Shown: positions 2,590-27,182 of the stretch, one piece after another
How positions within the stretch are numbered: the first letter of the stretch is position 1
How the letters are laid out: every line of letters starts with the position of its first letter
Assembly: GCA_051362555.1 (NCBI GenBank)
Contig: CM120644.1
Span: 876,954-940,953 of the forward strand
Direction: 5' to 3'
DNA from: Lingula anatina
Taxonomy: Eukaryota > Animalia > Brachiopoda
Length of the DNA stretch: 64,000 nt
Notes under the pieces: generated by a model
What the model was told of the DNA's origin: nothing
Database searches by the model: none
What the model saw: only the letters and a program-made list of their open reading frames with translations
Translations under genes and position numbers: made by a program

Positions 2590-3400
2590 ATGGCAACATC
2601 ATTTAGAACGGACACGGACCAGGAGAATTTCTTTCGCATGAGCATTCTAATTGTAGATTATGCCATGAAAATATTGCAAGATGTTCTCCAGCTACAGCTA
2701 AGAAAAAAGTATCCCAATTTATTTGACCCCAGCACAGGGTTGCTGAATAAGGTGCTTGGTGATGCAACTGTCACAACAACACTGTTTATATTACCATCAA
2801 GAGTGTTTAATCACCACCAACGAAAACAACTCTATCCTGCTGGGAAGCCTTCCACATCAGTAACTGTTGGAGATTTAGACATCACATTGACTGTGCTTTT
2901 GTTGAGAAACATCACCACGTTGAATCCTCGTCCTCGGTCGAAAGCATGGGATAACCCCTCTGACACAGACACATCAACAGAGGCCACGATTGGGAGAGTT
3001 AAAAGATATCGGAATGTTGTGTATGGCCATGCAAACAAGGCAGCAATAAGCGATCGAGAATTCTTGGAACATTTCAGAGGGCTCAAGTCCAATCTCCAGG
3101 CTCTTTCTAGAAAGTTCACCGATGAGGAATATGACGATATATTGTCTAAACCTTTCAATGCTGCTTTACTGGAGACAAACCAAAGCATTCTCAAAGAATG
3201 GTTTGGTTATGACAAAGATGTGAAAGACGAGTTGTTAAGCATGAAAGCTACAGTGGAGGAAATGCCAAAGCAGCTTAGCCATATAGAACAGGTTCAAAAA
3301 GGTAGTGAAGACACTGTTATCAGAGAGATGAGAAGTGAAACCCAGAGTACACGTGAACAAATCGAGAAATTGGGATTTTCACTTGAACAAAAGACAGAAG
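2590..3400 (+). CDS. NLR-1 exon 1: DZIP3/hRUL138-like HEPN domain plus coiled-coil linker
   Basis: Motifs ENFFRMSILIVD, QLYP, DLDITLTVLLLRNI, IGRVKRYRNVVYGHA. Acceptor ccag at 2554 and donor AG|GTACAG at 3400. Confidence 0.8.
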
Positions 3401-5105
3401 GTACAGATTATATAATTTTAGGCATTGTTTTTATATTATAAACCAAGAAAATAACACACGATTTAAAATGCTATTGTGGCTCACATTTGGTTTTCAGGAG
3501 CAACTTTATTTTCAACATTTTTATGGATGTGAAGAAGTAAAAAGTAATGAAAAAGTATAACCACTGAGGTAAAAGATCTTTAAGATTATTGATTTGATTG
3601 CTACTACCTGAGCTTGACATCTCATTGTGTTTTGGTTTCAGAAATTAAGGACCAACTCCAAGCGATTTATGGCAGGGATCGAGACAGACCAGAAAGTCAG
3701 AAAATCCCAGGTAATGTGCTGTAATAAACTCTAGGTACAGGAAACCAGATACATCTATGCATGGGGACGTGTCTTGTTTACCACTAATTTAAGTACATTA
3801 GCATTATATATGTAGTCCGTTGTGTCCTTTCATCCTCAACTTTAAATTTGTTATATATAAGCTAGGGCATATCAACTTATATTCCTAAAATATACGTATG
3901 AGAAATCCGCTTTTTTTGTTTACAAAATAATAATACAAATATTTTGGATTGGATTATAAACAAAGTGACCCTCCCCCCCCCCTACAAAATTAAAGAAAAT
4001 CAAAGAAATTTGCTGGACTTAAACTTCAATTTTTTGTGCACGATCATTCCCAAAATTTAAAGTAATCTTGATCACTTTGCTCCAAACGGCCTCCAAGAAC
4101 TGGCAGCACACCTGCGTACACCACACAAAATGTCTATTACATAAATATATTCCTCATTCGGGATTTCCCTGATTTTTGCTGTTACTTTTCTGCAGATCAG
4201 TCTTAAAATCGCTCTCTCAGCCAGGCTGTGGAGTATTTTAAACCACAATCCATCTTGACAGCGGCGGATTTAGGGTTTCTGAAAAATATATCACACCAGT
4301 TTTCCCCTCTTGAAATTAGAATTTTGAATAGTTCTAAATCATCGTTCTAAACCGTACCAAAGGGCACTGTTTGCTCTCCAGAAAAAAAATTCAGGGCCCT
4401 TGAGCAGGCCCCCAACCCCACAACAAGGGGGCGATGGTCAGCCTCGTATTCGAGGTGTGTCGTACCGCCCCCCCCCATCTCCCCCTTCAAATAATCCTAG
4501 GTCAGCCCCTGCTTGATCTGCCACTCCACAACATTCAACGCCGCAGTGACCATTAAAAAAAGAACATAATAACTTTTATGCAAAGCTACCAAGATTACTC
4601 AAAATTTTGGTAATGATGATGCGCATACTGAAAATTAAGTCTAGGAAATTTCATGGTGATGTGATCCCCAGTACAGGTAGCCCTCTCTCCCTCTCTTGTG
4701 ATCCCCAGTACAGGTAGCCCTCTCTCCCTCTCTTGTGATCCCCAGTACAGGTAGCCCTCTCTCCCTCTCTTGTGATCCCCAGTACAGGTAGCCCTCTCTC
4801 CCTCTCTTGTGAACATACATGTATCTAGCTTAAAAATGGTAAAACTGCATGGTAATTTGTCCCTGGATCATGTAACATGATAATATGTAGCAGTATGAAG
4901 TTATTGTTTTACCCCCACCAATGAAGTTGTGTTTTTGCCTTTGTTTGTTATAGTCTATATTTGTTAAGGGCAACCAAACCCTAATAAGTTGTGGACCAAT
5001 TTTGATGAAAAATTCCGGAAAGATCAGAAAAGGGCCAGCTTAGAATTTTTAAGATTTTGGTGAGGAAAAATTCATTGATTAATGATGAAAATTAAGGTGG
5101 CTTTC

Positions 5106-5143
<38 letters not shown>

Positions 5144-8100
5144 TTATTGAGCCAATAAAATACAAATGTATAAAATCGGGAATCTTTTGCCCTGTAGTAG
5201 CGCCATTGAAATATAAAGAATGAAACTTAAAATTACATGTTAGAGTTAAAAATAGTTACTGCCGAAGGATAAAAGCTATTTAAAAATCGCTTACTACCCT
5301 TAAAAGCTAAGAGTCTCGAATTGCTAGGTAAAAATTTAAAAAAGGGTATGGGCTGGATGGGAACTGTCTGTCATTATTGATAACGTTTTGTTTTTAGTCC
5401 TGTCTAGATATATAGTATGGACGGAGTTAGATCTGTTCCAATTACAATCCCTGCAGTTTCGACGATCTTTTCCAACTTGTTCCTCTCCTCCACAGTTGCG
5501 CGTCCATTCCAAACAGTTACTGAATAAATTAAAACACTCTCTAAAACACACCTGCAAAAGTTCGTTAAAATAAACACATTTCTGGTAAAAGCTTTCAATT
5601 TCCTTAAGAAATACAGGGGCGGATTTAGGCCGTCTTCTGGGTCTTCCGGAAGACGGTCAGATTTTCAAGTTTACATTGACGGGTATCTATTTTTTTCTGT
5701 CGGAAGACGGTCAAAAAATGGAGGATGGATCATCAAATATAATATGGAAGACTGTCAGAAAATATCTCTGGATCCGCCCCTGAAATACATTCGTTGATGT
5801 GCCTTTTTCAATAGCTTCGTAATGTTATCGCCCCAGGTTAGCCTATTGAAGCACACTGAATATTTTTGTATTTCTCTGCTGAAGTCTACCTGGACACCTG
5901 AAGTAAGCAACTCTAACACAAGTGAACAATAACTAACTACTGCACTAGCTGTGCAGCTCTTTATTATAGTGCCAGTTATGCAAATGACCCAATGCTACAA
6001 GTCCAATAAATATGATTGGCCAGTTCACCACTGCATGACCACTGCAATGCAACACTTGACCATAATTGTTTGAGATGTTATCACATAGTCATATTCAGCT
6101 GATCCCCTAGTAATTTATAATTAGAAACCTGTTCGACCGCTTTACCGTTAACTTCCAAGGGATTTTTACTTATCTGATTTCTTTTGAAGTCAATAATCAT
6201 TGCTTTTGTTTTGCTCACTTTTAATATCAAGTCATTGTCTATGCACCAATTTACTAAACTTGTAACTGACTGCCTGTATGACATCTCATCATTATGGTGT
6301 ATCAAGCCGACTAAAGTTGTGTCATCGGCAAACCTCATTGAAATGTATTTTCCTCCCTCGCCACACAGTCGTGGGTGATTAACGTATATAAACAATATGA
6401 TAAGACGCAGTCCTGGGTGTGCCAGTGTTTAAAAAACTATAGTGTCCGAGAAGTTAAAACCGACTTTTACTGACTGTTTTCTGTTTAAAAGAAAATCTAA
6501 AATCCAATCGCAGAGTGCTGGTGGAAAATTAAGAGATCTTTGCTTTGTGCATGCTTTATTTTTAGTCCTTTATCTGTTTTACTCTTTTCAATTATTTTTT
6601 TTGTTTGGGGAGCTTCAGTTGGACAGTGAATTGTTATACGTGCTTTGCACATTCAAAATATGAGATTGTAGGATATTTCCAATAAGGCAACAGATAACAA
6701 TGTATTAATTTTAATTTTACAGGCAAACATGTGATGGTAGATCGCAGTACTGACAAGTCCGAAGATCATCCTGCAAAACGTAAGTCATCCCAGCCGGCAT
6801 TTGCTCTAGGACAGACAAAACTAATCCTGTGACATTGATTAATGCTTTGCTTGCTGTTTTTTAAAAAATATTTTTGAAAGGTTATGTCTTCCTTTTTATT
6901 TAACACAATATTACTTCGTGAAGGCACTTTTCATTCTTTCACAATGAATGATGAGGCTTATACCAGCCTCAAAATAAAGAAATACAATATTTTACTTGAA
7001 GTTTGATTGAAAAAATGGCACAGTGAACTTAAAAAAAGAACTTTATCCAAAACAGAAATTACATTAAGTGATATAAGTGCTGTTTGTGCTGAAGTTAAAA
7101 AGTATGTGTTATATTCTTATCCAAACTTTGAAATCAAAATATCTTTGTAAAATACAGGTACTTTTCTTTTACAGGCAGCAGGCTCCATACAATCAAACCA
7201 GATCCCCTCTATCAGGTAGGTTAAATAAGATGCTTAACCTATCAGGTAGGTTAAGCATCTTACTATATTTAAATATTTGAAACTTGTTGTTAATCAGTGG
7301 TTCATGATTTCATGAAAATATCAAACTTTTGCATCTTTCATCTTAACGCCATGTTCCATGATAACATATTTAATGATGATGGTTCATAAGCTTAAGTGTA
7401 GACAAACAATAATATTTGGGGTCTTACTAAAACCTACATTACATTTGCCATGGGCGCCATCTACTCAGTACCTCCGTTGAGACGCTGTACGAAAAGGGAA
7501 TTACGGGTAGTGTACGGGCACCGTACTTGCATCGCATTTCAAATGTAATGTTTGTTTTACATGGCTAAATAAGATATCCCCTTGTCAAGAGTACATCTTA
7601 CTATTGTAGTTCACTGGTGTTGTGCTTCTGTAGAGTTATCTTTCTCTGCTGCTTTATGAAACCACGACCTCTTATCAATTACTATTACAAGCCATGTTAT
7701 ATAGTGCACACAGTCCATATCTATATTTAAAAATCGTATGTAACATTTCATAATAGATATTGTGAATTATGAACCGGCTTCTATATTTTTTGATTTTGTC
7801 ATTTTGAGTAAGAAGTTGCTGGGTCTGATATTTCTCAGCTTTAATTGTACATTTCATTCCAGTCTGTAATATAAGCTTTAAAACCTGAATCAGTCTTCTA
7901 ATTTTCAGGCACCTGTAATGAGCCCAACTCACAACAACCTGTTGTTACAAAAGCGTCCAATGCTGATAAAAGACCTCCAAGTTGAGGACATCATCCCACA
8001 CATGGTAGCCAGGGGAATCCTCAGTGAACGTAATGCAGATAAGATAAAGGCTCAAAAGACGGAACAGGAACAAGCATTTGAATTTCTCTGTATTTTACCA

Positions 8101-10782
8101 AAATGTGGTCCTCGTGCATTTGACACCTTTGTTGAAGTGTTGAGAGAGCACAACAAGAAAGAACTCGCAGATTTGTTAGCAGAAAAGGCGACCACTTGTA
8201 GTAGTAAAAACCAAATAGCAAATTTCTACATCAGTCACATGAGCCAGATACAGCGACTGCCCTGGGACCCCGACGATACCATGCACATGGACGAAGTGTA
8301 TGTTAACTTACAGTGGGTACAAGAAGAAACCAAACCCACAGGCACTAGTTCTAAATCAGTTGAAAACTACACATCGATATTTGAAGATACCAAACAAGGC
8401 AAACGACCAAAGAGAATATTGGTCAGAGGAAAAGCAGGTATCGGCAAAACCACATTTACACAGAAGATGGCAACAGATTGGGCAAACAATGCAGTCGGAT
8501 TAAAAAAATGTGAAGAAGTTTTGTCAAAATATGAACATCTTATCATATTAAATCTACGCAGCATTCAGCCTGGTCAAACACTGAAGGAAGCAATTGGAAT
8601 ACAAATTCCTTGTTCTGCAGAAATTACGAAGGTAGTGGCAGAGGAAACCATGTATGCTCTGGACAATAACAGTGACCATGTGCTGTTGGTCTTTGACGGT
8701 TATGATGAATATGATCCCAACACTTCACAAGAAATCACAGAAGTTATCAATCGTACACGATACCAGGATGTATGCACCGTCATTACAACACGTCCATGGA
8801 AGGCAGAAGAGTTGATGAACAGACGAATAATGGACAGTGTGTATGAAATCACTGGGCTAACAAAGGACAATATAGCTCAGTATGTTGCAAATTTCTTTGA
8901 TAAGAAAGAAATAAGGAAGGGTCTTTTAAGATACCTAGATAAAATGAGTCTTATGTCTCTGGCAGAGGTCCCAATACTTTTACTATTCATTTGCCTTCTG
9001 TGGGAAGATCAGATAAATGATTCATGTTCAGGTTCACTTCCAGGTTCATACACACTGCTATATGAGAACCTCATACAGTTGCTCATAAGACGAAGATATA
9101 ACATCAGGTCACAGAAAAAAGTGAGTGAATATCTTGAAAAACTGAAACACACTTTTTTCAATATTGGTAAGCTGGCTTTAGAGGGTCTGCTTAAACCAGA
9201 TGGGGGTCTTGTATTTGATGAAGAAGATTTAAAGTTGATTCCAAACATCAGTGAGTTGTACAGTTTAGGTCTCCTCAACAAGTCCAAAGTACACTGTAAC
9301 CTTGATGTGAAATATCAAGTAACATTTCTTCATAAAACCATTCAAGAACTATTTGCTGCAGAATACCTTGCTGGGACAATAGGTGAAAATGATCATGTTT
9401 TAGATGAATTTCTGGGACGCTTAAATACTATTGACAGGCTCTACGACATGGAGTATGTGCTGCGCTTCTTATGTGGGTTATCAGAGCAGGCGATTGCCAA
9501 AGTGCGACCAAGAGCTCAAGAACTGGCGAAGATGGATGCATCTCTAAAACACATTTATTCTTCAAATACTGAAATTGAAACTAGTGGTTTATTCAACATA
9601 CAAAACCTCCCAATCAGGTTTATCGGTGTTGTTCCCTTTGACATTCATATTGCTAACAAGTACATACAACATTTTAATAACTTCCTCCTAGAACACTGGT
9701 ATGGCCACTGTCACGAGGAAAGAGATTTGACTCCTGAGCTTACCCCCTGGCACACCATACTCAGCATACCATACTCATTTAAACACTCTGATCCCAGATT
9801 TCAAGAGGTCTTGGACAACAGTTTATACAGTAACGAACAGATATGGAAAAATGTATTCCAAGATGTCACTACTGTGATTTGGGACCACACTAGAGATACA
9901 TCAAATCAAGCGATTCACTTATCAATGATATGTGAAGTATTCAGGAATCTTTCATTCATATTTTGGATTGAAGCAATATCCATGGATTCTAATTGCGCTA
10001 GCAGTGCCGTAAAACATGTATTGTCCAATGCGCCTAACTTAAACACACTTTGTATCAATAGATTCTTTGATAGTTCATGTCTATCCTTGATACCAAACCC
10101 TGCAAAATTGCGTAACCTACTTGTAAGTGACTGGGATGATCTTAGTGTACCACCGGAACTAGTAGACACTCAGATTCTTAGGCAGATGTCATCATTGAAG
10201 TATTTACATCTAGAACAAGGTACATGTGAAAGCTTGAAAAAAATTAATGGCCTATGGGGTCAGCTTCCGTTCAGTCTGACGCACTTAGTGATTAGGTATT
10301 TTCCCCTTGCTGCTGAGTGTGTCAAGATATTGGGGAAAAACCTTCATCATGTGCCAGGACTGGAATACTTAAAACTGGTACATGTGCATAATCCAGACAC
10401 ATTTCTGGAAAGGACAAATTTGAATATTACCCAGAAGTTTCTCTTAAGGAGATGGATGTATTACAAAAGCTGTCTAAAAATTGATCAGCAAGAAGATGAA
10501 AACCATGGTTGCCGGGATTATTGTGAAGCTTTGCTTGTACTGGGCCACGGTGTGACACACACTCCTAAGTTGAAATATTTCTCGTTGGCAAACAATGACT
10601 TGGGTGCGTATTGTGGTATCACCAGTCCACTCACAGCATTGGTACAGTCCCTCTGTACAGTGTCAGAGCAGACCAGAATGGAGATTGACTTATCTCTTAA
10701 TTATGTACACCATGTTGACGGTCTCAAGGAACAAATAGAGAGCATTGCCAGTTCCTACCCGCACGTGACCCTGACATTTTAG
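2590..10782 (+). CDS. NLR-1: HEPN(DZIP3-like)-coiled coil-CARD-NACHT-LRR-like protein, about 1283 aa, 5 coding exons
   Basis: Exons 2590-3400, 3642-3710, 6723-6779, 7175-7215 and 7909-10782. All are GT-AG with phases 1,1,1,0 and give one open frame. ATG in accATGG with an in-frame TAA upstream. Exon 1 has DLDITLTVLLLRN and RNVVYGH (HEPN Rx4-6H). The last exon has a CARD-like start, Walker A GKAGIGKT, Walker B LLVFDGYDE, sensor ITTRP, winged-helix FLHKTIQELFAA and LxxLxL repeats. Confidence 0.85.
4259..4511. mobile_element. Non-autonomous DNA transposon (CAG...CTG ends, 5-bp TSD)
   Basis: CAGCGGCGGATTT...GTCAGCCCCTG flanked by CTTGA on both sides. Confidence 0.6.
4661..4812. repeat. 37-bp minisatellite x4
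   Basis: GTGATCCCCAGTACAGGTAGCCCTCTCTCCCTCTCTT repeated perfectly four times. Confidence 0.95.
5106..6530 (-). mobile_element. 5'-truncated, decayed non-LTR retrotransposon (Rex1/Babar-like, CR1/L2 group) in NLR-1 intron 2
   Basis: Minus-strand RT fragments LCDWILDFL, FADDTTLVGLI...NWCIDNDLIL.VSKTK.MIIDF, QRMYFLRKLK, LESVLIYSVTVW and DSSHPAHTLF, ending in a (TTA)n tail at 5106-5143. Contains stops and frameshifts and is interrupted by insertions at 5614-5782 and about 5850-6100. Confidence 0.85.
5614..5782. mobile_element. MITE (CAGGGGCGGAT TIR family) nested in the LINE
   Basis: CAGGGGCGGATT...GATCCGCCCCTG with AAATA duplicated; near-identical copy at 42323-42490. Confidence 0.85.
7909..10782 (+). 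CDS. NLR-1 terminal exon: CARD-NACHT-LRR-like
   Basis: 954-aa ORF 7918-10782 extended to the acceptor at 7908; NACHT motifs intact. Confidence 0.92.
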   Translation, partial: APVMSPTHNNLLLQKRPMLIKDLQVEDIIPHMVARGILSERNADKIKAQKTEQEQAFEFLCILPKCGPRAFDTFVEVLREHNKKELADLLAEKATTCSSKNQIANFYISHMSQIQRLPWDPDDTMHMDEVYVNLQWVQEETKPTGTSSKSVENYTSIFEDTKQGKRPKRILVRGKAGIGKTTFTQKMATDWANNAVGLKKCEEVLSKYEHLIILNLRSIQPGQTLKEAIGIQIPCSAEITKVVAEETMYALDNNSDHVLLVFDGYDEYDPNTSQEITEVINRTRYQDVCTVITTRPWKAEELMNRRIMDSVYEITGLTKDNIAQYVANFFDKKEIRKGLLRYLDKMSLMSLAEVPILLLFICLLWEDQINDSCSGSLPGSYTLLYENLIQLLIRRRYNIRSQKKVSEYLEKLKHTFFNIGKLALEGLLKPDGGLVFDEEDLKLIPNISELYSLGLLNKSKVHCNLDVKYQVTFLHKTIQELFAAEYLAGTIGENDHVLDEFLGRLNTIDRLYDMEYVLRFLCGLSEQAIAKVRPRAQELAKMDASLKHIYSSNTEIETSGLFNIQNLPIRFIGVVPFDIHIANKYIQHFNNFLLEHWYGHCHEERDLTPELTPWHTILSIPYSFKHSDPRFQEVLDNSLYSNEQIWKNVFQDVTTVIWDHTRDTSNQAIHLSMICEVFRNLSFIFWIEAISMDSNCASSAVKHVLSNAPNLNTLCINRFFDSSCLSLIPNPAKLRNLLVSDWDDLSVPPELVDTQILRQMSSLKYLHLEQGTCESLKKINGLWGQLPFSLTHLVIRYFPLAAECVKILGKNLHHVPGLEYLKLVHVHNPDTFLERTNLNITQKFLLRRWMYYKSCLKIDQQEDENHGCRDYCEALLVLGHGVTHTPKLKYFSLANNDLGAYCGITSPLTALVQSLCTVSEQTRMEIDLSLNYVHHVDGLKEQIESIASSYPHVTLTF

Positions 10783-11993
10783 ACAATGTAACTTCTTTGG
10801 GCAGATTTTTCTTGTGAAGAGTAATCGGAGGGATTGCTGTCATGTACTGTGTTTATAAGCATAAATTTCCTGGTCGAGATACAGTCTTAAAAAGCATGAG
10901 TGGATAAAGAAAAAAAAAAACATACGGAGATTATTTGTAAAATGATGCATATGTAGTGGCCATTAAAAGTGGGGAACGTGCTCCAGTTTGCCTTCCCCTT
11001 TACAAAACTTGATGTGAGTGATAATATTGTTTTTTCATTTTATCACCATGTTCATGTCCTGGCCGTAATGGTGCAATAATTGTAAAATTTAAAGATATTG
11101 TATTTTAACGAACAGACACAGATGTGGCTGAGCATATACATGTAGTTGTCACTGTTGTAAGAGGATTTAAACTAATCGAAATTTAATGTAAAATAATGCA
11201 CATGCATAGTGGACATTTAACGCAGGACCGCGTTGTTTAAAGGTTGTCTCACCTACACTTGCCAACTTGGATTGAAAATATTGTATGGCACCCTTCCTTT
11301 AGTTACAAGGGTTGAGGTTAGCCTGAACTTAGTGGTTCAACATCCAGGGTGAGGATCACCTGTATGAATGGGTAGCAGACATTCTGTTATGGGGGACTCT
11401 CTGTCACGTGACACCGGCATGCCAGTATTGGCTGACTGCAAGTGCACCGGCAATTTGAAGCTTTTCTCCACTGTGTAGTGTATTCGAAATGGCATTAACA
11501 TGTTATAATTAAAATGAGTGTATAAATGGTCATACATATATATATATAAAGTAGTTTGTTTGTAATTTATGTAAGTTGTAAATAAAATAGTTTTATAAGG
11601 TTAAACATTTTTTCTTATATGCATGCCCATTATTTGGAACACAATAAATTGCTCACGGCATTTAATAATTTAAGTGTAAATTACATCTATGCCATTGTTA
11701 GCATTCCCTGTTGATAAAATAGCCATATGCATGCAAAACACCTTTATAAGGCATTCGGAATAACTTGATACGCGGACTAGCAGATCCGAGGACTAAACTC
11801 GGCCGAGTCACTTACAAGGAGTGCTGACTAATTCTCTAATGGCCTCCCTGCCTCCACATGCGCCGACGCTGCAAGGACTTGGCAATTAAACCTCAAAGCC
11901 AAGATTTAATACAATTGATGACGCGTTTGGAGGCGGGGAGATCATCAAGGGTTTAAGACTTATCGTCCATAAAACCAAAAGTAGAAAAAAACT

Positions 11994-12305
11994 CCACTGT
12001 CACATACTGTCACATCTAACACAATCCACTGTCACATACGGTCACATCTAACACAATCCACTGTCACATACTGTCACATCTAACACAATCCACTGTCACA
12101 TACTGTCACAGCTAACACAATCCACGGCCACATACTGTCACATCTAACACAATCCACTGTCACATACTGTCACATCTAACACAATCCACTGCCACATACT
12201 GTCACATCTAACACAATCCACTGTCACATCTAACACAATCCACTGCCACATACTGTCACATCTAACATAACCCACTGTCACATACTGTCACATCTAACAC
12301 AATAC
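11994..12305. repeat. About 32-bp minisatellite (CCACTGTCACATACTGTCACATCTAACACAAT)
   Basis: About 10 units; a shorter homologous array lies at 27183-27308. Confidence 0.9.
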
Positions 12306-12876
12306 AACGTCAATACACATAATACAATACAACGTCAAATTCATACATCACTTATATCATTGCTTATGGAAATTGTGTATTTTATTTTTACTTGGCAATG
12401 TGTCGCATTTTGAACTTAAAGAATTGGAATGTATGTTGTTGGGGGTTCGGAGTAACGGTTTGCAGTAGTATCCTTACGGGAGATTATCGGTGCTGGGATA
12501 TAAAGACGCAGGGGAGTGTCGATGAGGGGAAGTATTGGTTCAGGGGAGTATAGGATGTGATAGTACTGGTGAATGATTTCTATATATTCTTCCTCTGCCG
12601 TGAAATGGGCTCCGTACTCCCCCGAATTGATGTAAGAACACTTAACGGACCAATAGAGACCTGGGCTCGGAATCTCGAAAGGATCGCTATGTTGCGCACG
12701 CGCTATAGCATAGCTAGCGTGCGCTATTTGCTAGTGCGATTGCACCCACCTGCTATCTCGAAGCCTTAGCAAACGCAACGCAATAAATGCCTGCCCGGAA
12801 GTACAATGTTAGTCTCGAACACACGCCAAGCGGTTCTTTTTTGTTTGGAGGGACGATATAGAAAATCGCACGTGAA

Positions 12877-13447
12877 ATGGAGAAACAGCAGGGAGCGTTA
12901 TAAGACCGATGAGCTCGCGGTGTTGGTGGCGGAGGTATCGTGTAGACCTCCAGTATTTGGCCCCTTCACCAACACCGTGACTCTAAAGTCCAAAGAAAAA
13001 CAATGGGCTGAAGTTGCCGAAAAGTAAGTTGAATAATTATGATTAACAGTCCTCTTCCTTTAATCGTAGTCTGTATGCCATTATATCCATTAGGCCCCCT
13101 ATATTTAATTATTGCTTATTGATGATTTAGTTTGGTATGTTGATGTAGTTATTCAATAAAAGTAAATGTAATTGCTCTCTATTAACACATCTTGACATAG
13201 TCATGTAGGCCCACATGTATGATGAAGCAATAAAGTGGTGATTCTTATTTTTTTTATTAAAATTATGAATACTTTCCTTCTAGAGTTAACCGTATTTCAC
13301 ATATAAAGAGGAGTTTCCGAGAGGTCAGGAAAAAATGTCATGACCTCACGTCTCGCACTAAGCGCAAAGAGGCCAAACGCCGAGCAGCAATGCGGCAGAC
13401 AGGTGGTGGTGTGGGGCCCAGTCCACTGTCAGAGTGGGAGAAGAACG
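12877..13447 (+). pseudogene. Harbinger Myb/SANT-like DNA-binding protein relic (2 exons)
   Basis: RERYKTDELAVLVAEV...KSKEKQWAEVAEK, intron GTAAGT...AG, then VNRISHIKRSFREVRKKCHDL...RQTGGG. The start region appears frameshifted. Confidence 0.7.
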
Positions 13448-14516
13448 TGTTATTTTGTTATTTTGTATTTTGTTATTAAAAATGAATTTTTATATTAAAT
13501 TGCATAATGGCTAACTTCGTTTTATATTTAATTGCTTAAAGAACCTCAAGATGATATTAAGTAGAGTAATTAACTTAGACTCTGTGAATATGAATACTTA
13601 AACACTGAGTTTCACAGAGATACCCTATTGGAATGTCCAATCACCAGGAGGCATTTTTTATACATAGGGCCTACATATATCTCTATATATTTATACTGAT
13701 CAGGTAATAGAGATAATTGGAGAAACTGCATTAGAGGGTATCTAATACATTTGACTGTATTATTTTTTCCTTTAATTTATGCAATTTCTTTTTGATAATT
13801 TTTCAGTATTTTTCATTCAGTAATTTACAATATTTGAATCAGTTTGATCATTCAGTACTGTCTTTTAAACTTAGTTTATGACCTCAGCAAAGAACTAGAA
13901 TTTGTTACAAATCTTTTATAAGGGACAGTTTTCATTTGCTTTTGTCCTTGAAAAGGACTTTATTTTTATATTGTACTTATTCACCTTAAGTTAGACAAGA
14001 ATATACATTTAGGAAATTGTTTATAAAATTATTTTTATATTTTATTTTATATTTTCATCATGTTATTGTTTCATAAAATAAAAAAAAATTATGTTAAATA
14101 TAACTTGACTGTCTGTTTTGTTTCTTACATTAACTTAAAATTGATTTTATTTTGCCCTGATTGCATTGAATGTGTACTTCAAAAGTAATTGACTTAAAGT
14201 ATCAGTCTTTTTGATTCCTGAAATTCGTTATTAAATTCCCTGCATGAACACTAGCTGTTATATTAAATCAAATTTTTACACCTTTGTTATTTTGTACACT
14301 TATTTTAAATTTCAGTTCTTAGTATTATATGCAAAATATGTATGCAAAATATAATTAAATATGACATTTTAAAGAGAAAATCAGTTTTCGTTGTTTTATT
14401 TAATTTTTAATGAAAAAATAATCCTTAATCATCCCTCAATGATTCATAAATGATCCAACTGAGAGTTAGATAAAAATACCAGGAGCATATGGAAGTGTGT
14501 GTGAGACTCAGAGATC

Positions 14517-14702
14517 CTATGCAAGTACACGTAAAGCAGCAAGAACTTGGGTAGTAAGTGATAGTGCTCGGGACCTCGTAGTCGGTCTTTTCAAAGGTAC
14601 TTCAATAATATTGGTCAGTTTGAGCACATTCTCCTGCGTCATGCGGTATCTCTGATGAAAAATATGGGGTTGGAACTCTACCATAGGACCTATATGTCTC
14701 AC
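14517..14702 (-). pseudogene. Harbinger transposase N-terminal fragment
   Basis: FHQRYRMT...LKRPTTRSRALSLTTQVLAALRVLA matches the HARBI1-like N-terminal pattern; the DDE core is absent. Confidence 0.75.
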
Positions 14703-16074: not shown

Positions 16075-19000
16075 ATGGAGTCAGAAACAGGTTCAGGTAA
16101 GAAGTTGAGGACAGTAGTTGTGTTAATGCCGGTGTGGCAGGAGTGCACGTCCTAGTAACGCAAGTCCGCCCGGACACTAAGTCCTGGGAATGCAAGTCCT
16201 AGGGCATGTATTGCTAGGTATGGAAGTCCTAGGACATACGTTTCTAAGATTTAATGTTCGTAGGACAAAGGCTCCCAAGTAGTGCAAGTCCTACGTGTAG
16301 TAATGCACGTCCTAATGGGACGTGAGTTCCTGACATTTTAGTAACGCATGTCCTATATAGTTTATCCCAAGAAATGAAATGAATAAATAAATATAGAGAC
16401 ATACTAGTTTTAAAAATATAATAAACGTTTGCTTTATTCTATTTATATGACATTTTATATTTATATTTTACAATGTTTTCCGATAGGCAGTTTATATGCA
16501 TATTAATGAAAAAACAAAAGCAATTAATTTATTTTATGTGTATTCTTCATCTAGTAAACCCAAATTTTGACTTGTTAAAACGCATATTTTTGGCATACTC
16601 CTCCCTCAGTGCACAATATGTCTGAGCCTGGTTTGCCCGATATTTTTTTCACAAAATAATTCACCATCCAAAGGCATCCCTTATTTTCATCCCGTGAGGT
16701 ATATGTACAGTGTATATTATTTTATGTCCTTTTCTACTGGAGTGTACCTTTTGTGTTTTGTGTCGAAATTCTTATTTTCTCTCCCTCTCTCTCTTTTTCA
16801 AAACCTTAGTTTCCTAAGAGAAAAATCACTTTACACAAAACACGGGATCTCCGTTCTTAGATTTATTTTTCGGTTTACACTGAAATTGAAAAATAACCTC
16901 AAACTCGCTGGAAATTTGCTCTTGGAAAGTATGGACGGAGATTTAAGACAAATCAAGACAGTTAAGAAATTGAAAATTGCAATATATGTATATAATGTTC
17001 TGTAATAACCCTTTGCTATTTTGGTGCTTTGATACTTAAAAGACAAAACAAAAAAGTTGTAAATGTAATGAGCACGGAATTTCGAACACATATTAGACAT
17101 TAAAAACACCATTAAACATTTTGCTACAAGTAATAAATAGGGGTAAGAGGGGGGTATGGTCAAGTCAAAGATAGGTCTCGAACCCATAGATACAATAGAA
17201 CGATTGATGATATCTTACCTCGTAGTCTTGCACACTAACCACTAGACAGACGAGCTGAAGTTGCAAACCTCTCATTTTTTGTCTGATATATGGCTCACCA
17301 GAAGGATTTCATATACATTTATAGTTTTATCATTTAACGGTGATGTTGCCTAAGAATAGGACTTTCAAATGGCTGGAATGTAACAGGAATAAAAGTCCGA
17401 CAGTAGTACAAGTCCTACCTACTCTAATTATGAGCCAGGAACCTAATCCCTGTAGGACTACTATTCCCAAGTAATGTTAGTCTTATGGACCTCGGTTCCT
17501 GGGGGACTTGGATTACTGTTACATGTACACCGGGTAAATTAATGCAACAGAGGTGGTTATTCTTACACTAGAGCAGCAAATTTGTGCCAATTATTGGTTT
17601 GAGGATGTAATGTAAAACATTTCTTCACGACATAACATTAAGGTCAAACACATTGTCAGCTTTGAATATTTATTTTTAGTTAGTATCTGTAATCCGCCAT
17701 GAATTCTCGCAACCTCGTTTGTTGATGCGTTTAACAGTTTAATTCATTTTTACGTTTTCTCAGTTAATCTATCTAGATTTCTTCATTTGTATTTTAAAAT
17801 TTTATAAAGCGTGCCTAAGTCAAAATAAAAAAGCAATTAAAAGTTTAAAAAGATAAAATAATTTAAAAATAATGCGAATTTTATTTTATTTACATGCTTA
17901 TTGCATAATCAAATTAAAATTAATATCTACAAGTGTTCCATTTAGGTGAAATGCAACAATTTTGAAAACGTATTCAACTTATTTTCCTTTTGAGACAGTT
18001 TCTCAACACTTTTTAGGTCGAATCGAATACGGAGAATTAAAAAAAAGTCCTACTTATATTAATATCCTGCTGATTTGTTGTAATGAGCGACATTTGAAAA
18101 ACATTGTCGTTAGATTGCTCCTATTTTAACCTTCCCTGTATGATTATAATCATTGCACCAAATGCCATTTCATCTGCTTTCTGAAAGTACCTATGTTTTA
18201 TGTATAGATGAATTTCTAATTATCTTAATAATCTTGTGATCCTATTTGTTATCAACTGACAATGATAAAGAAGACAGACATGGTCATCATCCATATTATA
18301 TGAATGCATACTGTACAGCCTGCAAATTTCACCTTGAGTAATGAAAAAGGCAAAACAAAAAAATTTGCAACTGCATACTGTTACAACAACAAAAAGGGTA
18401 TGAGATAAGGACAATGGAATATGTGTTATAAGAACTTTATATTTACATGTATTATATGTGACGTTGAAACTTTTTAATGCCAACGCGAAAATAACTAATG
18501 TGAAGTTGGTTTGATGAAACAAAAAATCAGTAAAGACTGACTTCTGCTGAAGCCATTAACAAACGTCAACCAAAGTTTTTATGTATGCAAGGATTATTTC
18601 CTCATAGGTTGGCTACTATAAGGTTTTTTTGTTTTATTGCTAAACTTGTCTTTTTGTTTATATACATGTTTTAACATGTCATGTATGTTTCTTCTAATTA
18701 TTGTTCAATTTTATACCATTTGCATGTGTTAGTCTTCGTTTGTTTTTGTATCTCCCCTATCTTAGTGTGACGTGTCCTTCGATGCATGCAGCACAGGGGG
18801 ATTCCAATTCGATATCAATATGAATACCTTCCATGTGGTAATGAATCAATGTGATCTAGGATAATAATGATCAAATCTTCATTTTGAATTCAAAAGAAGA
18901 ATTTACTGGTCATTTTCAATAAGACGAAATTTAACATATGTCTTTCTTTCAGATTCATGTCCTCAAGTGGACTCCACTGAGTCGTCAACTACGGACGTAG

Positions 19001-22000
19001 TAGACACCCAGCATTTATATCCTCCATTACCAACTGAAGAGACAATGAATACACAGACCACAGTGACAGGTCTTGCAAGTGTTGATGTGGGAACCAGTTC
19101 AGGTAATACCCTTTCCCTCCCTCCCTCTCTCCCTCCCCCCTCTCTCTCTTAGCTCTGTGTCACCGCATCAGGGCCTCCGTCGACGTCACTTTTCTGACGT
19201 CAGCATAACACCATTTTGACCTATGGCTCTGTCTCCACACCTGGGCTACATGTACCACGAGGACATATAAATAGAGTACCTGCCATGACCAGATGACCAT
19301 TTGTGATGTCTAACTTTATATTTTATGCGTGATGGAGTGCCTCAGTTAGATGTGACTGCCTGTTTTCTTTAACAAAATCGACTCAGTTAACCGTGCAGTT
19401 ATCATATACATGTATATATTGTGTTGCTTCGGGCCCGTCATTTAGATTACCTTTGAAAATATTTAAATTTGAGGCGTTCGTATGGTACTCATGGTTATGG
19501 GTGTATCTATTTATTATTGAAATTATAATACCCCCACAGATGTTATGCTTTGCCCTGGTTAGTTTTTAATTTAACGATCTACTTGTTGTAACTCAAAAAG
19601 TTTTAAAAGGACACATTTCAATAAAAAATACAGGATCAGCCAGAAATGTGCTGATCTAGAATCAACTGAACTTTAAAAAACGCTCAATATATTCATTACC
19701 AATGGGAAATGAGCTGACTTGGCGTGGGTCTGCACCCTTTGATGGTTTTATTTCCAGTCATTATTTTTTTCAGTAACAAGTGCTAGATGCATGGGATTTC
19801 AATTCGATATCAATATGAATACCTTCCATGTGGTAATGAATTAATGTGATCTTGGATTAAAAAATAATCAAATCTTCATTTCACATATTCAAAATATGAC
19901 TAAACTAAACGTTTTCAATAATACTAGAATTAAACATATATTTTTATATTATATTCTATAGGCAAACATGCGATAGGAGACGCCAGAACAGACAAGTCAG
20001 AAGTTAATCCTGCAAAACGTGAGTCATGTCAGCCGTCATGTATTCTTATGACCAACAATGTCTGATACAGTTCGTCAACAATACCATATCCCTATTAACT
20101 TGATCATTGTTTAGTTTGCTGTGTTGTAAAAATGGGAATTTTAGTCGTTCACGTTTTCTTTTCATATAGCTTGGTTGGATTTTGATGCCATGTGAGGCAT
20201 ACTTTTACAATAATGAAATTAAACTTATACATATTCCCAAAAATGAAAACCGTAAACTTTCCAGAAGGATATTTAAATAATCCATTCTGGACAAAATTAA
20301 ATAAAAAGAACTACATTTAAATTTAAAATTGCATCGTTTTAACAAGTGTGATACCTACTGAATTTGTTTATTTTGCCTCATATTTTTTTATTCTAAGAAC
20401 TACATACACTGTAGTTGAAAGAAATATACTTTTTTTGCAGGCAGCAAACTCCATACGACCGAACCAGATGCTGCCTTTTGTCAGGTACATTCAGAATTTT
20501 CATCACTCAGCCTAAATTGTTTTTGCTTCGTTGGGGGGAGGGGGTATTTTAAGGACCCATTTAATTCCACTCTGTATACAGGGGCATAAAATGTGCACTA
20601 CGTTTGTATATCTTATACCCCCTTTACACTGGACGGCGTCCTTCCTACGTCCTTTCTGCGATCATGAAATTTGGCATTGCTGTGGTCTTAATAAGGAGGC
20701 ACGAGCATTGATTTTGTATAAGAATGAATGCTCAATGATCGACCAGTTGTAGGCACGTAAAGTATTATAATTTTTAACTCTTAAATGGGGCCGTGCTACT
20801 GGACGCAGAAAGGACGCCGTCCAGTGTAAAGGGGGCTTTAGTTAATCTTATACTTCACATGTGGTATATTTATTTGTGCTGAGCTGTCGTTCTCTGTATT
20901 CACTTTATTTCTCTTTAATACTTTAAGTTACCAGGCATATGTTGCACTATACTTTATAGTCTTATTTAGCTTTTCACAATGAATATAGGAAACCACCAAC
21001 CTGCTTTTCCAACTTTTTCATTGTATTGTTCATGAATAAGAACTACTAGCAGGTGGCACTCATGTTTTTCAATTTCAGCTTTAAGTTTCATTTCAGTTTC
21101 TAATATTAGCACAAAAACTTAAAATTGTCTTCTAATTATCAGGTACCTGTAATGAGCCCAACACACAAAAACCTGTTGGTACAAATGCGCCAAATGCTGA
21201 TAACAGATCTCCAAGTTGAGGGCATCATCCCGGATATGGTGGCCAGCGGCATCCTTAGTAAACTTAATGCAGATAAGATAAAGGCTCAAAAGACGGAACA
21301 AGACCAAGCTTTTGAATTTCTCTGTATTCTACCGAAATGTGGTCCTCGTGCATTTGACACCTTTGTTGAAGTGTTGAGAAAACACAACAAAAAAGAACTT
21401 GCAGGTTCGTTAGCAGAAAAGGCGACCAGTTGTTGTAGTAAAAACCAAATAGCAAACGTTTACATCAATCATATGAGCCAGATACAGCGACTTCCCTGGG
21501 ACCCCGACGATACAATGCACATGGACGATGTGTATGTTAACTTACAATGGGTACAAGAAAAAAGAGAACCCAAAGGCATAAGTTGTAATTCAGTTGAAAG
21601 TTACACCTCAATATTTAAAAATACTGAACAAGGCAAAAAACCAAAAAGAATATTGGTCAGAGGCAAAGCAGGTATTGGCAAAACCACTTTTACACAGAAG
21701 ATGGCAACAGACTGGGCAAATGCCACACTAGGATTGAAAGACTGTAACAATGTTCTGTCAAAATATAAACATCTTATCATATTAAATCTACGCAGCATTC
21801 AGCCTGGTCAAACACTGAAAGAAGCAATTGAAATACAAATTCCTTGTTCTGAAGAAAATACGAAAGCAGTGGTAGAGGAGACCATGCATGCTCTAGACTT
21901 TGACGGTGACCAAGTGCTATTGGTCTTTGACGGTTATGATGAATACGACCCCAAGACTTCACAAGAAATTAGAGATGTCATCAATCGCAGACGATACCAG

Positions 22001-24142
22001 GATGTATGCACCATCATCACAACTCGTCCATGGAAAGCAGTAGAGTTGATGAACAGACGTATTATGGACAGTGTGTATGAAATCACTGGGCTAACAGAGG
22101 GCAATATAGCTCAGTATGCTGCAAATTTCTTTGATGACAAAGAAACATATGATGAATACCTGAAATTGGAGAACATGACTAGAGAAGAAATCCGTGATTT
22201 TGAAGAAGCTCATGATATTCGTATTGATCATTTTGAGTGTTGTTGGGACACATATGGTGAAATAGGGAAGGGTCTTTTAGGATACCTAAGGAAAATGAAT
22301 CTCATGTCCCTTGCAAATATACCAATACTTTTACTGTTCATTTGTCTTTTGTGGGAAGATTCTAAGAAAGATTCACTTTTAGGTTCCTACACACTGCTAT
22401 ATGAGAACCTTATACACTTGCTCATAAGACGAAGACATGGAATCATTTCACAGGAAAAATTGGATGAAAAGTTGGGAGAATTCAAGGGGGCCTTTTTCAA
22501 GCTTGGTAAGCTGGCTTTAGAGGGTCTGTTTAAACCAGATGGGGGTCTTGTATTTGATGAAGAAGACTTGAAATCGATTCCAAACATCAGTGAGTTGTAC
22601 AGTTTAGGTCTCCTCAACAAGTCCAAAGTACATTGTAACTTTGATGTGAAATATCAAGTAACATTTCCTCATAAAACCATCCAAGAACTATTTGCTGCAA
22701 AATACCTTTCTTGGACAATAAGTGAAAAGGATCATGTTTTAGATGAATTTTTAGGACGCTTAAACACCCTTGACAGGCTCTACGACATGAACTATGTGCT
22801 GTGCTTCTTATGTGGGTTATCAGAGCAGGCGATTGGCAAAGTGCGACCTAGAGTTCAAGAGCTGGCAAAGATGGATGCAACTCTAAAACACATTTATTCT
22901 CCAAATACTGGAGGTGAAACCAGTATTTTCTACAACAGACATACCATCTCGCTGTATTATCCCTTTGACAGTAATATTGCTGACTCATACATTCAATATT
23001 TTAACGATCTCCTCCTAGAACACTGGTATGCCCACTGTACCCAGGAAAGTGATTTGACTCCTGAGCTTGCCCTCTGGCACACCATACTCCGCATACCACA
23101 CTCCTTTAGACACTATGATCCCAGATTTCAGGAGGTCTTGGACAACAGTTTACGCAATAATAAACAGATATGGAAAAATGTATTCCAAGATGCCAATACT
23201 GTCATTTCTGACTGCAAACCATACTCATGGGACGACGAATTTGAAAGGCATGAAATACAGCAAATGGAAGATAAAACGATCCCCTTATTAATGATGTGTA
23301 AAGTATTCAGGAATCTTTCATTTGTATTTTGGGATGATAGCCAAAAATGTAATAATCTCGGTACCGATGCTATAAAACATGTATTGTCCAATGCGCCTAA
23401 CTTAAACACACTTTGTATCGATAGAGACTTTGATAGTTCATACCTATCTTTAATACAAAACCCCGCAAATTTCCGCAACCTGCTTGTTAGACAATGGAAG
23501 GATCTTAGTGAAGCACCAGAACCAGTTAGTGAAGCACCAGAACCAGTAGACACTCAGATCCTTAGGCAGATGTCAGCATTGAAGTGTTTACATTTAGAAC
23601 GCGTTACATGTCAAAACTTGAAAAAAGACATAGGAGGTCAGCTGCCGTTCAGTCGTGGTCTGACGCACTTAGCGATTATTGATTTTCTCCTTACTGCTGA
23701 GTGTGTTATGATACTAGGGAAGAACCTTCAATATGTGTCAGGACTGGAACAAATAAAACTGGAAGGTGTATTTGATTGGAAATATATCACCTACTTTTAC
23801 CAGCTTTTCGAGTATGACAATTGTCCATATATTGATCAGGTTGAGAATGAAGAACATGGGTGCCCGGATGTTTGTGAAGCTGTGTTTGAACTGGGCCACG
23901 GTGTGACACACACTCCTAAGCTGAAACACTTCTCATTGGCAGACAATAAGTTGGGTTTGCACTGTGGTATTACCAGACCACTCACAGCATTGGTGCAATC
24001 TCTATGTACAGTGTCAGAGCAGATCGGAATGGAGATTGACTTATCTCGTAATTGGGAAGACAGAGTAGACGGCCTCAAGGAGCAGATAGAGTGCATTGTC
24101 AGGTCATACCCACACGTGACCCTGACCTTTAAGTGGAGGTAG
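16075..24142 (+). CDS. NLR-2: Ser/Thr-rich leader-CARD-NACHT-LRR-like protein, about 1090 aa, 5 coding exons
   Basis: Exons 16075-16096, 18953-19102, 19962-20018, 20441-20484 and 21143-24142 with phases 1,1,1,0. Exons 3-5 are clear paralogues of NLR-1 exons 3-5. The first two exons are inferred from splice sites and phase only. Confidence 0.75.
16129..17533. mobile_element. Probable non-autonomous TIR element in NLR-2 intron 1
   Basis: CCGGTGT...ACACCGG ends with many subterminal AAGTCCTAGG / AGGAC repeats at both ends; TSD not resolved. Confidence 0.45.
20618..20835. mobile_element. MITE with TIR CCCCCTTTACACTGGACGGCGTCC
   Basis: Perfect inverted terminal repeat of about 24 bp. Confidence 0.8.
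21143..24142 (+). CDS. NLR-2 terminal exon: CARD-NACHT-LRR-like
   Basis: Part of ORF 21125-24142; GKAGIGKT, LLVFDGYDE, ITTRP and FPHKTIQELFAA intact. Confidence 0.92.
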   Translation, partial: VPVMSPTHKNLLVQMRQMLITDLQVEGIIPDMVASGILSKLNADKIKAQKTEQDQAFEFLCILPKCGPRAFDTFVEVLRKHNKKELAGSLAEKATSCCSKNQIANVYINHMSQIQRLPWDPDDTMHMDDVYVNLQWVQEKREPKGISCNSVESYTSIFKNTEQGKKPKRILVRGKAGIGKTTFTQKMATDWANATLGLKDCNNVLSKYKHLIILNLRSIQPGQTLKEAIEIQIPCSEENTKAVVEETMHALDFDGDQVLLVFDGYDEYDPKTSQEIRDVINRRRYQDVCTIITTRPWKAVELMNRRIMDSVYEITGLTEGNIAQYAANFFDDKETYDEYLKLENMTREEIRDFEEAHDIRIDHFECCWDTYGEIGKGLLGYLRKMNLMSLANIPILLLFICLLWEDSKKDSLLGSYTLLYENLIHLLIRRRHGIISQEKLDEKLGEFKGAFFKLGKLALEGLFKPDGGLVFDEEDLKSIPNISELYSLGLLNKSKVHCNFDVKYQVTFPHKTIQELFAAKYLSWTISEKDHVLDEFLGRLNTLDRLYDMNYVLCFLCGLSEQAIGKVRPRVQELAKMDATLKHIYSPNTGGETSIFYNRHTISLYYPFDSNIADSYIQYFNDLLLEHWYAHCTQESDLTPELALWHTILRIPHSFRHYDPRFQEVLDNSLRNNKQIWKNVFQDANTVISDCKPYSWDDEFERHEIQQMEDKTIPLLMMCKVFRNLSFVFWDDSQKCNNLGTDAIKHVLSNAPNLNTLCIDRDFDSSYLSLIQNPANFRNLLVRQWKDLSEAPEPVSEAPEPVDTQILRQMSALKCLHLERVTCQNLKKDIGGQLPFSRGLTHLAIIDFLLTAECVMILGKNLQYVSGLEQIKLEGVFDWKYITYFYQLFEYDNCPYIDQVENEEHGCPDVCEAVFELGHGVTHTPKLKHFSLADNKLGLHCGITRPLTALVQSLCTVSEQIGMEIDLSRNWEDRVDGLKEQIECIVRSYPHVTLTFKWR

Positions 24143-27110: not shown

Positions 27111-27182
27111 GTGTGGAGGCGAGGAGAACATCAAGGGTTTTAAACTTATCGCCCATAAAACCAAAAGTAGAAAAAAAAAACT

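What the first reader, a model, noticed from the sequence alone, without database searches (positions are those of the whole stretch)
2590..10782. Dual-effector animal NLR: HEPN putative RNase fused in front of CARD-NACHT-LRR
Seen: the 287-aa and 954-aa ORFs, listed separately in the ORF track, join through three micro-exons (69, 57 and 41 nt) into one frame of about 1283 aa, with an intact RNVVYGH motif. Known: HEPN domains with Rx4-6H are dimerisation-activated RNases (RNase L, Ire1, Cas13, many bacterial defence toxins), DZIP3-type HEPNs occur on invertebrate STAND NTPases, and NACHT proteins oligomerise on ligand sensing. Inference: oligomerisation could both switch on RNA cleavage and recruit a caspase or adaptor through the internal CARD. 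HEPN-NLRs as a class are described; the HEPN+CARD combination and any activity are what may be new.
Basis: partly seen in the sequence, partly recalled or inferred. Interest (0 to 1): 0.8.

Follow-up and report, generated by a model that had tools for sequence, protein, structure and literature searches.

The report
Brachiopod immune receptor with RNase head
This stretch, likely from the lamp shell Lingula, holds five in-frame exons that are predicted to encode an intracellular immune receptor with a likely RNA-cutting domain in front of a death-signalling domain; the layout is already on record in paralogs and in a sea slug, and neither the joined transcript nor the RNA cutting has been shown.

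Summary
Five GT-AG exons join into one open 1283-aa frame with Pfam HEPN_DZIP3, CARD and NACHT and a fold-supported LRR end. All three micro-exons have homologues elsewhere: exon 2 follows the HEPN in 8 of 9 relatives; exons 3-4 recur in the HEPN-less tandem paralog next door, which is 99% identical to a Lingula anatina RefSeq protein. The join itself is not shown: seven RNA runs gave no junction read and almost no depth on the micro-exons. The combination is not new: two RefSeq Lingula models are HEPN-CARD-NACHT, two more loci have HEPN and CARD-NACHT models side by side, and an Aplysia NLR with HEPN, death-like, NACHT and LRR domains is in print. Most likely mechanism: ligand-driven NACHT oligomerisation pairs HEPN domains into an RNase, with the CARD as second output; untested. 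The scan held no look-alike of this DNA. Verdict: new member of a known kind, with useful natural controls (an R-to-Q paralog, a HEPN-less paralog).

The parts
2590..3400 (+). First coding exon: start codon, HEPN domain and a following helical, probably coiled-coil stretch; phase-1 donor
   Evidence: in-frame stop just upstream of the ATG; AG acceptor near 2555 seen by eye
2737..3168 (+). HEPN_DZIP3 domain (PF18738), aa 50-193
   Evidence: E 7.6e-40, 136.5 bits against a cut-off of 27; model pLDDT 86.5, all-helical
3010..3030 (+). Rx5H motif RNVVYGH (R141, H147), at the end of helix 130-145
   Evidence: R in 153 of 165 and H in 155 of 163 aligned rows
3642..3710 (+). Micro-exon 2 (69 nt, phase 1-1): last exon of the HEPN cassette
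   Evidence: homologous segment follows the HEPN in 8 of 9 relatives; tblastn of P0002 E 1.6e-4
3722..3728 (+). In-frame stop and overlapping AATAAA just inside intron 2: possible short HEPN-only product of 297 aa
   Evidence: AATAAA occurs 6 times in 4341 intron nt, so chance is not excluded; no RNA support
6723..6779 (+). Micro-exon 3 (57 nt, phase 1-1), linker, shared with the tandem paralog (19962-20018)
7175..7215 (+). Micro-exon 4 (41 nt, phase 1-0), sets the frame of the large exon; 44 nt in the paralog (20441-20484)
7909..10782 (+). Large last exon: CARD, NACHT, helical domains, LRR, stop
7936..8181 (+). CARD (PF00619), aa 336-417
   Evidence: E 4.6e-17; dN/dS 0.21 against the paralog
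8413..8904 (+). NACHT NTPase (PF05729), aa 495-658, with intact Walker A (8428-8451) and Walker B (8686-8709)
   Evidence: E 6.7e-21; motifs
9871..10776 (+). Divergent leucine-rich repeat solenoid, about ten strand-helix units
   Evidence: no Pfam LRR hit; model mean pLDDT 62.4; Foldseek best rows SKP2-complex, NAIP/NLRC4, FBXL17, E 5e-6 to 7e-5
16075..24142 (+). Tandem paralog without HEPN: exons 16075-16096, 18953-19102, 19962-20018, 20441-20484, 21143-24142; 1090-aa CARD-NACHT-LRR
   Evidence: 1068 of 1078 residues identical to RefSeq XP_013405311.1; no HEPN match outside 2590-3720 in the window

Best explanation
The five exons form one open frame for a HEPN-coiled coil-CARD-NACHT-LRR protein, likely spliced as one transcript, which would act as a cytosolic immune receptor: ligand binding at the LRR end would let the NACHT domains oligomerise, which would pair the HEPN domains into a likely active RNase, with the CARD likely serving as a second output to a caspase or adaptor. 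Shown here: frame, splice signals, domains, intact Rx5H and Walker motifs, paralog support for each exon. Inferred from established knowledge of NLRC4-type NLRs and of HEPN RNases (Csm6, AbiF, RNase L): ligand gating, oligomerisation, dimer-dependent cleavage, CARD partner. The HEPN head is probably ancestral in this Lingula NLR clade and lost in the neighbouring paralog.
For: Open 1283-aa frame with four GT-AG introns. HEPN_DZIP3 7.6e-40, CARD 4.6e-17, NACHT 6.7e-21. Two RefSeq models at other loci have the same order (P0001, P0005). At two more loci a HEPN-only model and a CARD-NACHT model carry consecutive accessions on contigs of the same length (XP_013389014/015 and XP_013382036/037). Exon 2 belongs to the HEPN cassette and ends in phase 1; exons 3-4 belong to the NLR and begin in phase 1. 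No match to the paralog's own leader exons lies in intron 2. Motif R and H are kept in 153 of 165 and 155 of 163 rows, Rx5H in 130 of 165. The best structural match of the HEPN model is Csm6 (Z 6.8, rmsd 3.2, 116 aligned) and rank 4 is AbiF (Z 5.8, rmsd 5.2, 159 aligned). dN/dS against the paralog is under 1 in all 7 regions, lowest in CARD (0.21) and highest in HD2 and LRR (0.76, 0.66), the pattern expected of a kept signalling end and a varying sensor end.
Against: No read joins any of the four introns in 7 runs; micro-exon bins have depth under 1, and at 95% likeness only X7 touches the coding exons, thinly, so expression of this allele is not shown. RefSeq splits HEPN from CARD-NACHT at two sister loci, and its nearest relative of the large exon (P0008) starts at the Met of that exon without a HEPN. 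A stop and AATAAA just inside intron 2 offer a HEPN-only exit. P0005 keeps the whole architecture with Q in place of the motif R, so catalysis is not needed in every copy. The fold match is weak (Z under 8; Foldseek none at E 0.001). No paper found tests RNase activity of a DZIP3-type HEPN.
Confidence: 0.5

Rival explanations
1. Two units, not one: exons 1-2 make a free HEPN-coiled-coil protein (ending in intron 2), and the CARD-NACHT-LRR is made separately from a Met in exon 3 or at the start of the large exon.
For: Read-through of the exon-2 donor gives a 297-aa product with AATAAA at the stop. RefSeq P0084 appears to end by such a read-through and lies beside a separately annotated CARD-NACHT gene. 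P0008, P0010 and P0013 start at the Met of the large exon. No junction read.
Against: Phases match across intron 2 and all splice signals are intact. No leader exon like the paralog's in intron 2. P0001 and P0005 are joined models. RefSeq starts at an exon's first Met often mark 5'-incomplete models (own knowledge). AATAAA is common in these introns (6 in 4341 nt). Both products could coexist as isoforms.
Confidence: 0.2
2. One protein, but the HEPN is a non-cutting RNA-binding sensor, decoy or dimerisation scaffold, and the CARD is the only real output, as in NLRC4.
For: P0005 has lost the motif R. The neighbouring paralog has no HEPN and is intact. TIAMMAt proposes HEPN-NLRs may act as RNA sensors. 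Some HEPN families are described as inactive.
Against: R, N and H are kept in over 90% of aligned rows; 194 of 202 pearl-oyster proteins keep the motif (PMC9646362). The HEPN sits at the N-terminal effector position.
Confidence: 0.18
3. One protein with one output: the CARD serves self-assembly (CARD-CARD or with HEPN-less CARD-NLR paralogs) that helps pair the HEPN domains, and recruits no caspase.
For: The CARD is internal, behind about 330 residues. HEPN-less and HEPN-bearing paralogs with 84% identical CARDs lie in tandem, as sensor-helper pairs might.
Against: The linker between coiled coil and CARD is about 55 low-complexity, variable residues and would leave the CARD reachable. L. anatina has CARD caspases and is predicted to have an NLRC-caspase-GSDME route (PMC11508797, a prediction).
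Confidence: 0.12

Closest known systems
Lingula anatina RefSeq models XP_013379433.1 (LOC106150941) and XP_013408965.1 (LOC106172698)
   Same: HEPN_DZIP3, CARD, NACHT in the same order; HEPN 77% and 71% identical; homologous exon-2 segment
   Different: Different middle linker; XP_013408965 has Q for the motif R; XP_013379433 stops before the LRRs and has an N-terminal hydrophobic extension; their NACHT is not the window gene's nearest. Named 'uncharacterized protein'.
Aplysia californica NLR LOC101849611 (PMC9334734)
   Same: [quoted passage not shown]
   Different: Death-like domain not named as CARD; domain order not given in the passage; sequence not compared here.
Invertebrate HEPN-NLRs (DZIP3/hRUL138-like HEPN on NACHT) of corals, bivalves and cephalochordates
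   Same: N-terminal PF18738 with Rx4-6H on a NACHT; tandem, haplotype-variable clusters (PMC8260672, PMC9646362, PMC8662601, 10.1101/2025.07.21.665930). 16 of 50 long relatives scanned carry HEPN and NACHT.
   Different: Most have no death-fold domain: 0 of those 50 had a CARD hit at E 1e-6; in the cnidarian table 1 of 20 'death' places is a HEPN-bearing NACHT row, XP_020628669.1.
Lingula HEPN-coiled coil-TRADD-N proteins with RIG-I-like helicase, GTPase or SF2 helicase (XP_013399073.1, XP_013399072.1, XP_013416013.1)
   Same: Same HEPN cassette, 74% identical, with the exon-2 segment; listed with these architectures in the supplement of PMC8195603
   Different: Different sensor, TRADD-N adaptors in place of CARD, no NACHT.
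NLRC4 / NAIP (vertebrate CARD-NACHT-LRR inflammasome)
   Same: CARD-NACHT-HD-LRR chassis; LRR model matches NAIP/NLRC4 structures
   Different: No enzyme domain; orthology not tested.
Csm6, AbiF and RNase L type HEPN RNases
   Same: All-helical fold with R..H motif; weak structural match to Csm6 and AbiF; PMC12165695 reports Cas13an HEPNs as structurally similar to Swt1, DZIP3 and AbiD/F
   Different: Switched by cyclic oligoadenylate, ncRNA or 2-5A, not by a NACHT (own knowledge); no sequence match in the PDB or PADLOC.

Membership tests
DZIP3/hRUL138-like HEPN (PF18738) | Profile match above the curated cut-off | tested here: met
   136.5 bits against 27, profile 2-140 of 144
DZIP3/hRUL138-like HEPN (PF18738) | Rx4-6H motif | tested here: met
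   RNVVYGH, Rx5H, the commonest form among relatives, 130 of 165 rows
HEPN RNases | HEPN fold by structure comparison | tested here: inconclusive
   Model pLDDT 86.5; best VIA row Csm6 Z 6.8, rmsd 3.2, 116 aligned; AbiF Z 5.8; both under the level that stands clear of helical bundles
HEPN RNases | Composite active site in a HEPN dimer | not tested
HEPN RNases | RNA cleavage | not testable with these tools
   needs a bench assay
Animal NLR (NACHT-LRR) | NACHT domain with Walker A and B | tested here: met
   E 6.7e-21; motifs at aa 500 and 586
Animal NLR (NACHT-LRR) | Winged-helix and HD2 after the NACHT | tested here: inconclusive
   NLRC4_HD2 E 0.0018 and NOD2_WH E 0.024, both under cut-off; HD2 E 3.6e-7 in paralog P0005
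Animal NLR (NACHT-LRR) | C-terminal LRRs | tested here: met
   No Pfam hit, but a strand-helix solenoid in the model and 50 Foldseek matches at E 0.001 or better, led by LRR proteins including NAIP/NLRC4
Animal NLR (NACHT-LRR) | Death-fold effector domain (CARD) | tested here: met
   CARD E 4.6e-17, 62.2 bits against 23.9; it is internal, not N-terminal
HEPN-NLR (single polypeptide) | HEPN and NACHT on one transcript | tested here: inconclusive
   Open frame and joined paralog models; no junction read, depth under 1 on the micro-exons
Animal NLR (NACHT-LRR) | Ligand-induced oligomerisation and signalling | not testable with these tools
   needs a bench assay

The most novel reading that the evidence does not exclude
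An animal NLR that is itself a ligand-gated RNase and also calls a caspase: an RNase L-like and an inflammasome-like output from one oligomer. The two-exon HEPN cassette is a movable effector that Lingula has placed on NLRs, a RIG-I-like helicase, a GTPase and CARD adaptors through a phase-1 intron, and early polyadenylation in intron 2 would switch between a free HEPN and the receptor-gated form.
Probability: 0.22. Interest if true: 0.7.

Novelty: new member of a known kind. Interest (0 to 1): 0.3.

Why it matters
HEPN-NLRs are among the commonest NLR types in corals and bivalves, yet I found no test of their RNase activity in the library searched. If this protein cuts RNA on oligomerisation, animals would use an NLR as a direct enzyme effector, as bacterial STAND defence proteins do. 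The Lingula clade is a handy test set: intact copy (this gene), a copy with the motif R lost (XP_013408965), a HEPN-less neighbour, and the same cassette on a RIG-I-like helicase. The gene itself adds one more copy of a layout already in databases.

Tried and rejected
No whole genome is held for this window, so sister loci were judged from RefSeq proteins only. Run search: no RNA holder listed; nine raw-read runs of the same species label were offered, seven were laid (X1, X2, X3, X4, X7, X8, X9); no joint at any predicted intron; the listed joints all lie in intronic repeats. PDB by sequence: nothing significant for the HEPN; Foldseek pdb: none at E 0.001; PADLOC: none. Rejected: that the HEPN-RLR, HEPN-GTPase and HEPN-helicase fusions are new (listed in the supplement of PMC8195603). 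Rejected as unproven: that this gene's HEPN was grafted separately from the RLR-type copies; the HEPN tree does not place it with starred support, and with the two split loci counted a single gain with loss in the neighbour is simpler. The profile hit on exon 2 is circular (the window's own sequence was in the profile) and is not used. A first model of the paralog had an off-by-one acceptor, corrected. Gerdol 2018 on Lingula immunity is not held; the pearl-oyster supplement could not be read; the column heads of TIAMMAt Supplementary Table 6 were lost in text conversion. Any of these may already list HEPN-CARD-NACHT in Lingula.
Full report
The observation. The five proposed exons are bounded by AG and GT, have intron phases 1, 1, 1, 0 and join into 3852 nt, 1283 aa, with no internal stop; of 8 exon combinations only the 4 holding the 41-nt exon are open. 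Pfam gives HEPN_DZIP3 (aa 50-193, E 7.6e-40), CARD (4.6e-17) and NACHT (6.7e-21). The motif RNVVYGH is R141-H147 at 3010-3030, and Walker A and B are intact. Pfam finds no LRR, but a model of the last 457 residues (mean pLDDT 62.4) shows about ten strand-helix units and Foldseek returns 50 matches at E 0.001 or better, led by LRR proteins including NAIP/NLRC4.

Where it comes from. All 7 long relatives of the HEPN exon and the top 10 of 77 relatives of the large exon are Lingula anatina RefSeq proteins. A tandem paralog at 16075-24142 translates to 1090 aa, with 1068 of 1078 aligned residues identical to XP_013405311.1. So the window is by inference L. anatina, from an assembly or haplotype other than RefSeq's. 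The nearest RefSeq relative of the large exon, XP_023932819.1, lies on a contig of the same length as XP_013405311.1 but is only 68% identical (CARD 78 of 83, NACHT 144 of 164, LRR region 188 of 323): a divergent allele or another tandem copy, annotated without a HEPN.

Are the micro-exons real? Each has a homologue. Exon 2 matches the segment after the HEPN and coiled coil in 8 of 9 HEPN relatives, above at least 299 of 300 shuffles each; P0006 is the miss. Exons 3 and 4 recur in the neighbour with the same phases (57 and 57 nt; 41 and 44 nt, a frame-keeping change) and are part of its RefSeq model. Of 1319 open AG..GT candidate readings between the two large exons, the top scores against four homologous linkers fall on the proposed exons. 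Thus exons 1-2 are a HEPN cassette, exons 3-5 are the NLR, and intron 2 (3711-6722, phase 1) is the seam. No match to the neighbour's own leader exons lies in that intron.

Is the seam spliced? Not shown. Seven RNA runs were laid. At 95% likeness only X7 touches the coding exons, thinly. At 85% X7, X8 and X9 cover the HEPN exon and the CARD-NACHT part at tens of reads deep, but at the listed places nearly all reads carry other letters, so they come from paralogs or divergent alleles; the bins holding the micro-exons have depth under 1 and no joint matches a predicted intron. The family is transcribed; this allele's junctions are untested. Indirect support: RefSeq joins HEPN, CARD and NACHT at two other loci (P0001, P0005), and at two more a HEPN-only model and a CARD-NACHT model have consecutive accessions on contigs of equal length (XP_013389014/015, XP_013382036/037). 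The same facts feed the main rival: RefSeq split those two, and reading through the exon-2 donor here gives a 297-aa product with AATAAA at its stop (6 such hexamers in 4341 intron nt, so possibly chance).

The HEPN. In 166 aligned rows from 154 relatives, 165 cover the motif: 130 Rx5H, 15 Rx4H, 20 none; R is kept in 153 of 165, H in 155 of 163. The model is confident (pLDDT 86.5) and all-helical, with the motif at the end of helix 130-145. Against 48,161 solved chains the best row is Csm6 (Z 6.8, rmsd 3.2, 116 aligned) and rank 4 is AbiF (Z 5.8, rmsd 5.2, 159 aligned), but ranks 2 and 3 are unrelated helical bundles and Z under 8 is not decisive; Foldseek gave no match at E 0.001. P0005 has Q for R.

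History. In a CARD-NACHT tree of 9 rows the three joined HEPN-bearing proteins are rejected as one clade (p-AU 1e-83); this gene groups with P0008 and the HEPN-less neighbour at 100/99 (P0011 and P0014, long rows, left out). With the two split loci counted as HEPN-bearing, one gain and a loss in the neighbour is the simplest reading (inference). In a 12-row HEPN tree the NLR-linked copies and P0006 group together, at 81/83, not starred. P0001 and P0005 are 97% identical from linker to NACHT but 79% in the HEPN part, which points to exchange of the head. The same cassette, 74% identical, heads a RIG-I-like helicase, an interferon-inducible-type GTPase and a helicase. Pairwise dN/dS against the neighbour rises from 0.21 (CARD) and 0.34 (NACHT) to 0.76 (HD2) and 0.66 (LRR); boundaries are approximate.

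How it most likely works. By established knowledge of NLRC4-type receptors, the LRR end holds the NACHT closed until a ligand binds; nucleotide exchange then drives oligomerisation. By established knowledge of HEPN RNases, two R..H motifs form one site at a dimer interface (PMC12165695 states that HEPN proteins typically homodimerise). Oligomerisation would crowd the N-terminal HEPN-coiled-coil heads and switch on RNA cleavage; the CARD, about 55 variable linker residues further in, would recruit a CARD caspase or adaptor. I put this at 0.5; two separate units 0.2; non-cutting HEPN 0.18; CARD for self-assembly only 0.12. No ligand, substrate or partner is known.

What is in print. Eight searches. 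PMC3710099 (passages): Table 1 lists DZIP3-HEPN fusions to CARD, NACHT, DEATH and LRR in animals, and the text proposes for the related CXorf38 family that DEATH and NACHT modules link HEPN action to apoptosis or RNA degradation. [quoted passage not shown] PMC8260672 (passages and a search of Table 5): HEPN is the commonest NACHT partner in nine cnidarians; one row has NACHT, HEPN and death; 'CARD' does not occur in the table. PMC9646362 (passages; supplement unreadable): over 50 HEPN-NACHT genes in pearl oyster, haplotype-variable. PMC8662601 (passages, section 7, supplement part 8): HEPN-NLRs in nine invertebrate taxa, function untested. PMC8195603 (passages; 12 of 13 supplements searched, one cut): lists the Lingula HEPN-RLR, HEPN-GTPase and HEPN-helicase proteins, not P0001 or P0005. 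10.1101/2025.07.21.665930, PMC8998645, PMC11508797 and PMC12165695: passages only. Gerdol 2018 was not seen. I found no paper that names HEPN-CARD-NACHT-LRR in Lingula and none that assays a DZIP3-type HEPN; the library lacks most subscription papers.

How rare the exact layout is. Of 53 unnamed relatives of 430 aa or more, 50 were scanned (P0211, P0219, P0226 dropped for the residue cap): 16 had HEPN and NACHT, none a CARD at E 1e-6. Of 19 long proteins found with a 58-row profile, 2 have HEPN, CARD and NACHT, both Lingula (only 7988 candidates scored, so weak evidence of absence). The CARD version looks Lingula-specific so far; the HEPN plus death-fold theme is not.

Earlier notes of this scan: none on this genome or this sequence; five notes on other HEPN or STAND proteins, one of which reached a similar verdict. 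They did not change my reading.

Verdict. A real, intact, well-supported gene model of a known kind: interest 0.3. The open question, RNase activity of animal HEPN-NLRs, is worth testing, and this clade offers good natural controls.

Noticed in passing
window 16075-24142: Intact HEPN-less tandem paralog, 99% identical to XP_013405311.1 but 12 aa longer; the shared duplicated unit runs on past both stops (11488-11909 with 25067-25509; 11925-12398 with 27111-27387).
   Followed up: yes
window 18798-18956 and 19793-19956: The acceptor regions of the paralog's 150-nt and 57-nt exons are 81% identical: the linker seems to grow by duplication of phase 1-1 exons.
   Followed up: partly
window 5336-6428, minus strand: Broken reverse-transcriptase-like stretch in intron 2 (RVT_1 E 0.0016, under cut-off), interrupted by a 169-nt repeat at 5614-5782 that has a 93% copy at 42323-42490 and draws hundreds of RNA reads from other loci.
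   Followed up: partly
window 12660-15033: Element with 68-nt terminal inverted repeats, 94% complementary, between the two NLR genes; ORF pieces look like a Harbinger/PIF transposon by recall, not by a tool match.
   Followed up: partly
P0086 (XP_013385614.2), P0006 (XP_013415833.1): Other Lingula HEPN fusions: HEPN with the start of a caspase domain and HEPN with a hydrophobic middle and a C-terminal CARD.
   Followed up: no
P0007, P0087, P0088, P0090, P0240-P0242: A second expansion of HEPN-NB-ARC-TPR or HEPN-TPR proteins, 45-49% identical in the HEPN; those with names are Lingula.
   Followed up: no
window 25566-26970, minus strand: Two overlapping ORFs (342 and 191 codons, stop to stop) in a GC-richer stretch with no Pfam match; unexplained, perhaps a mobile element.
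   Followed up: partly
window 31006-32729 and 49067-49537: Tandem arrays with periods 146 and 79.
   Followed up: no
window 23505-23547: 21-nt in-frame tandem duplication inside the paralog's LRR region, also present in the RefSeq protein.
   Followed up: no
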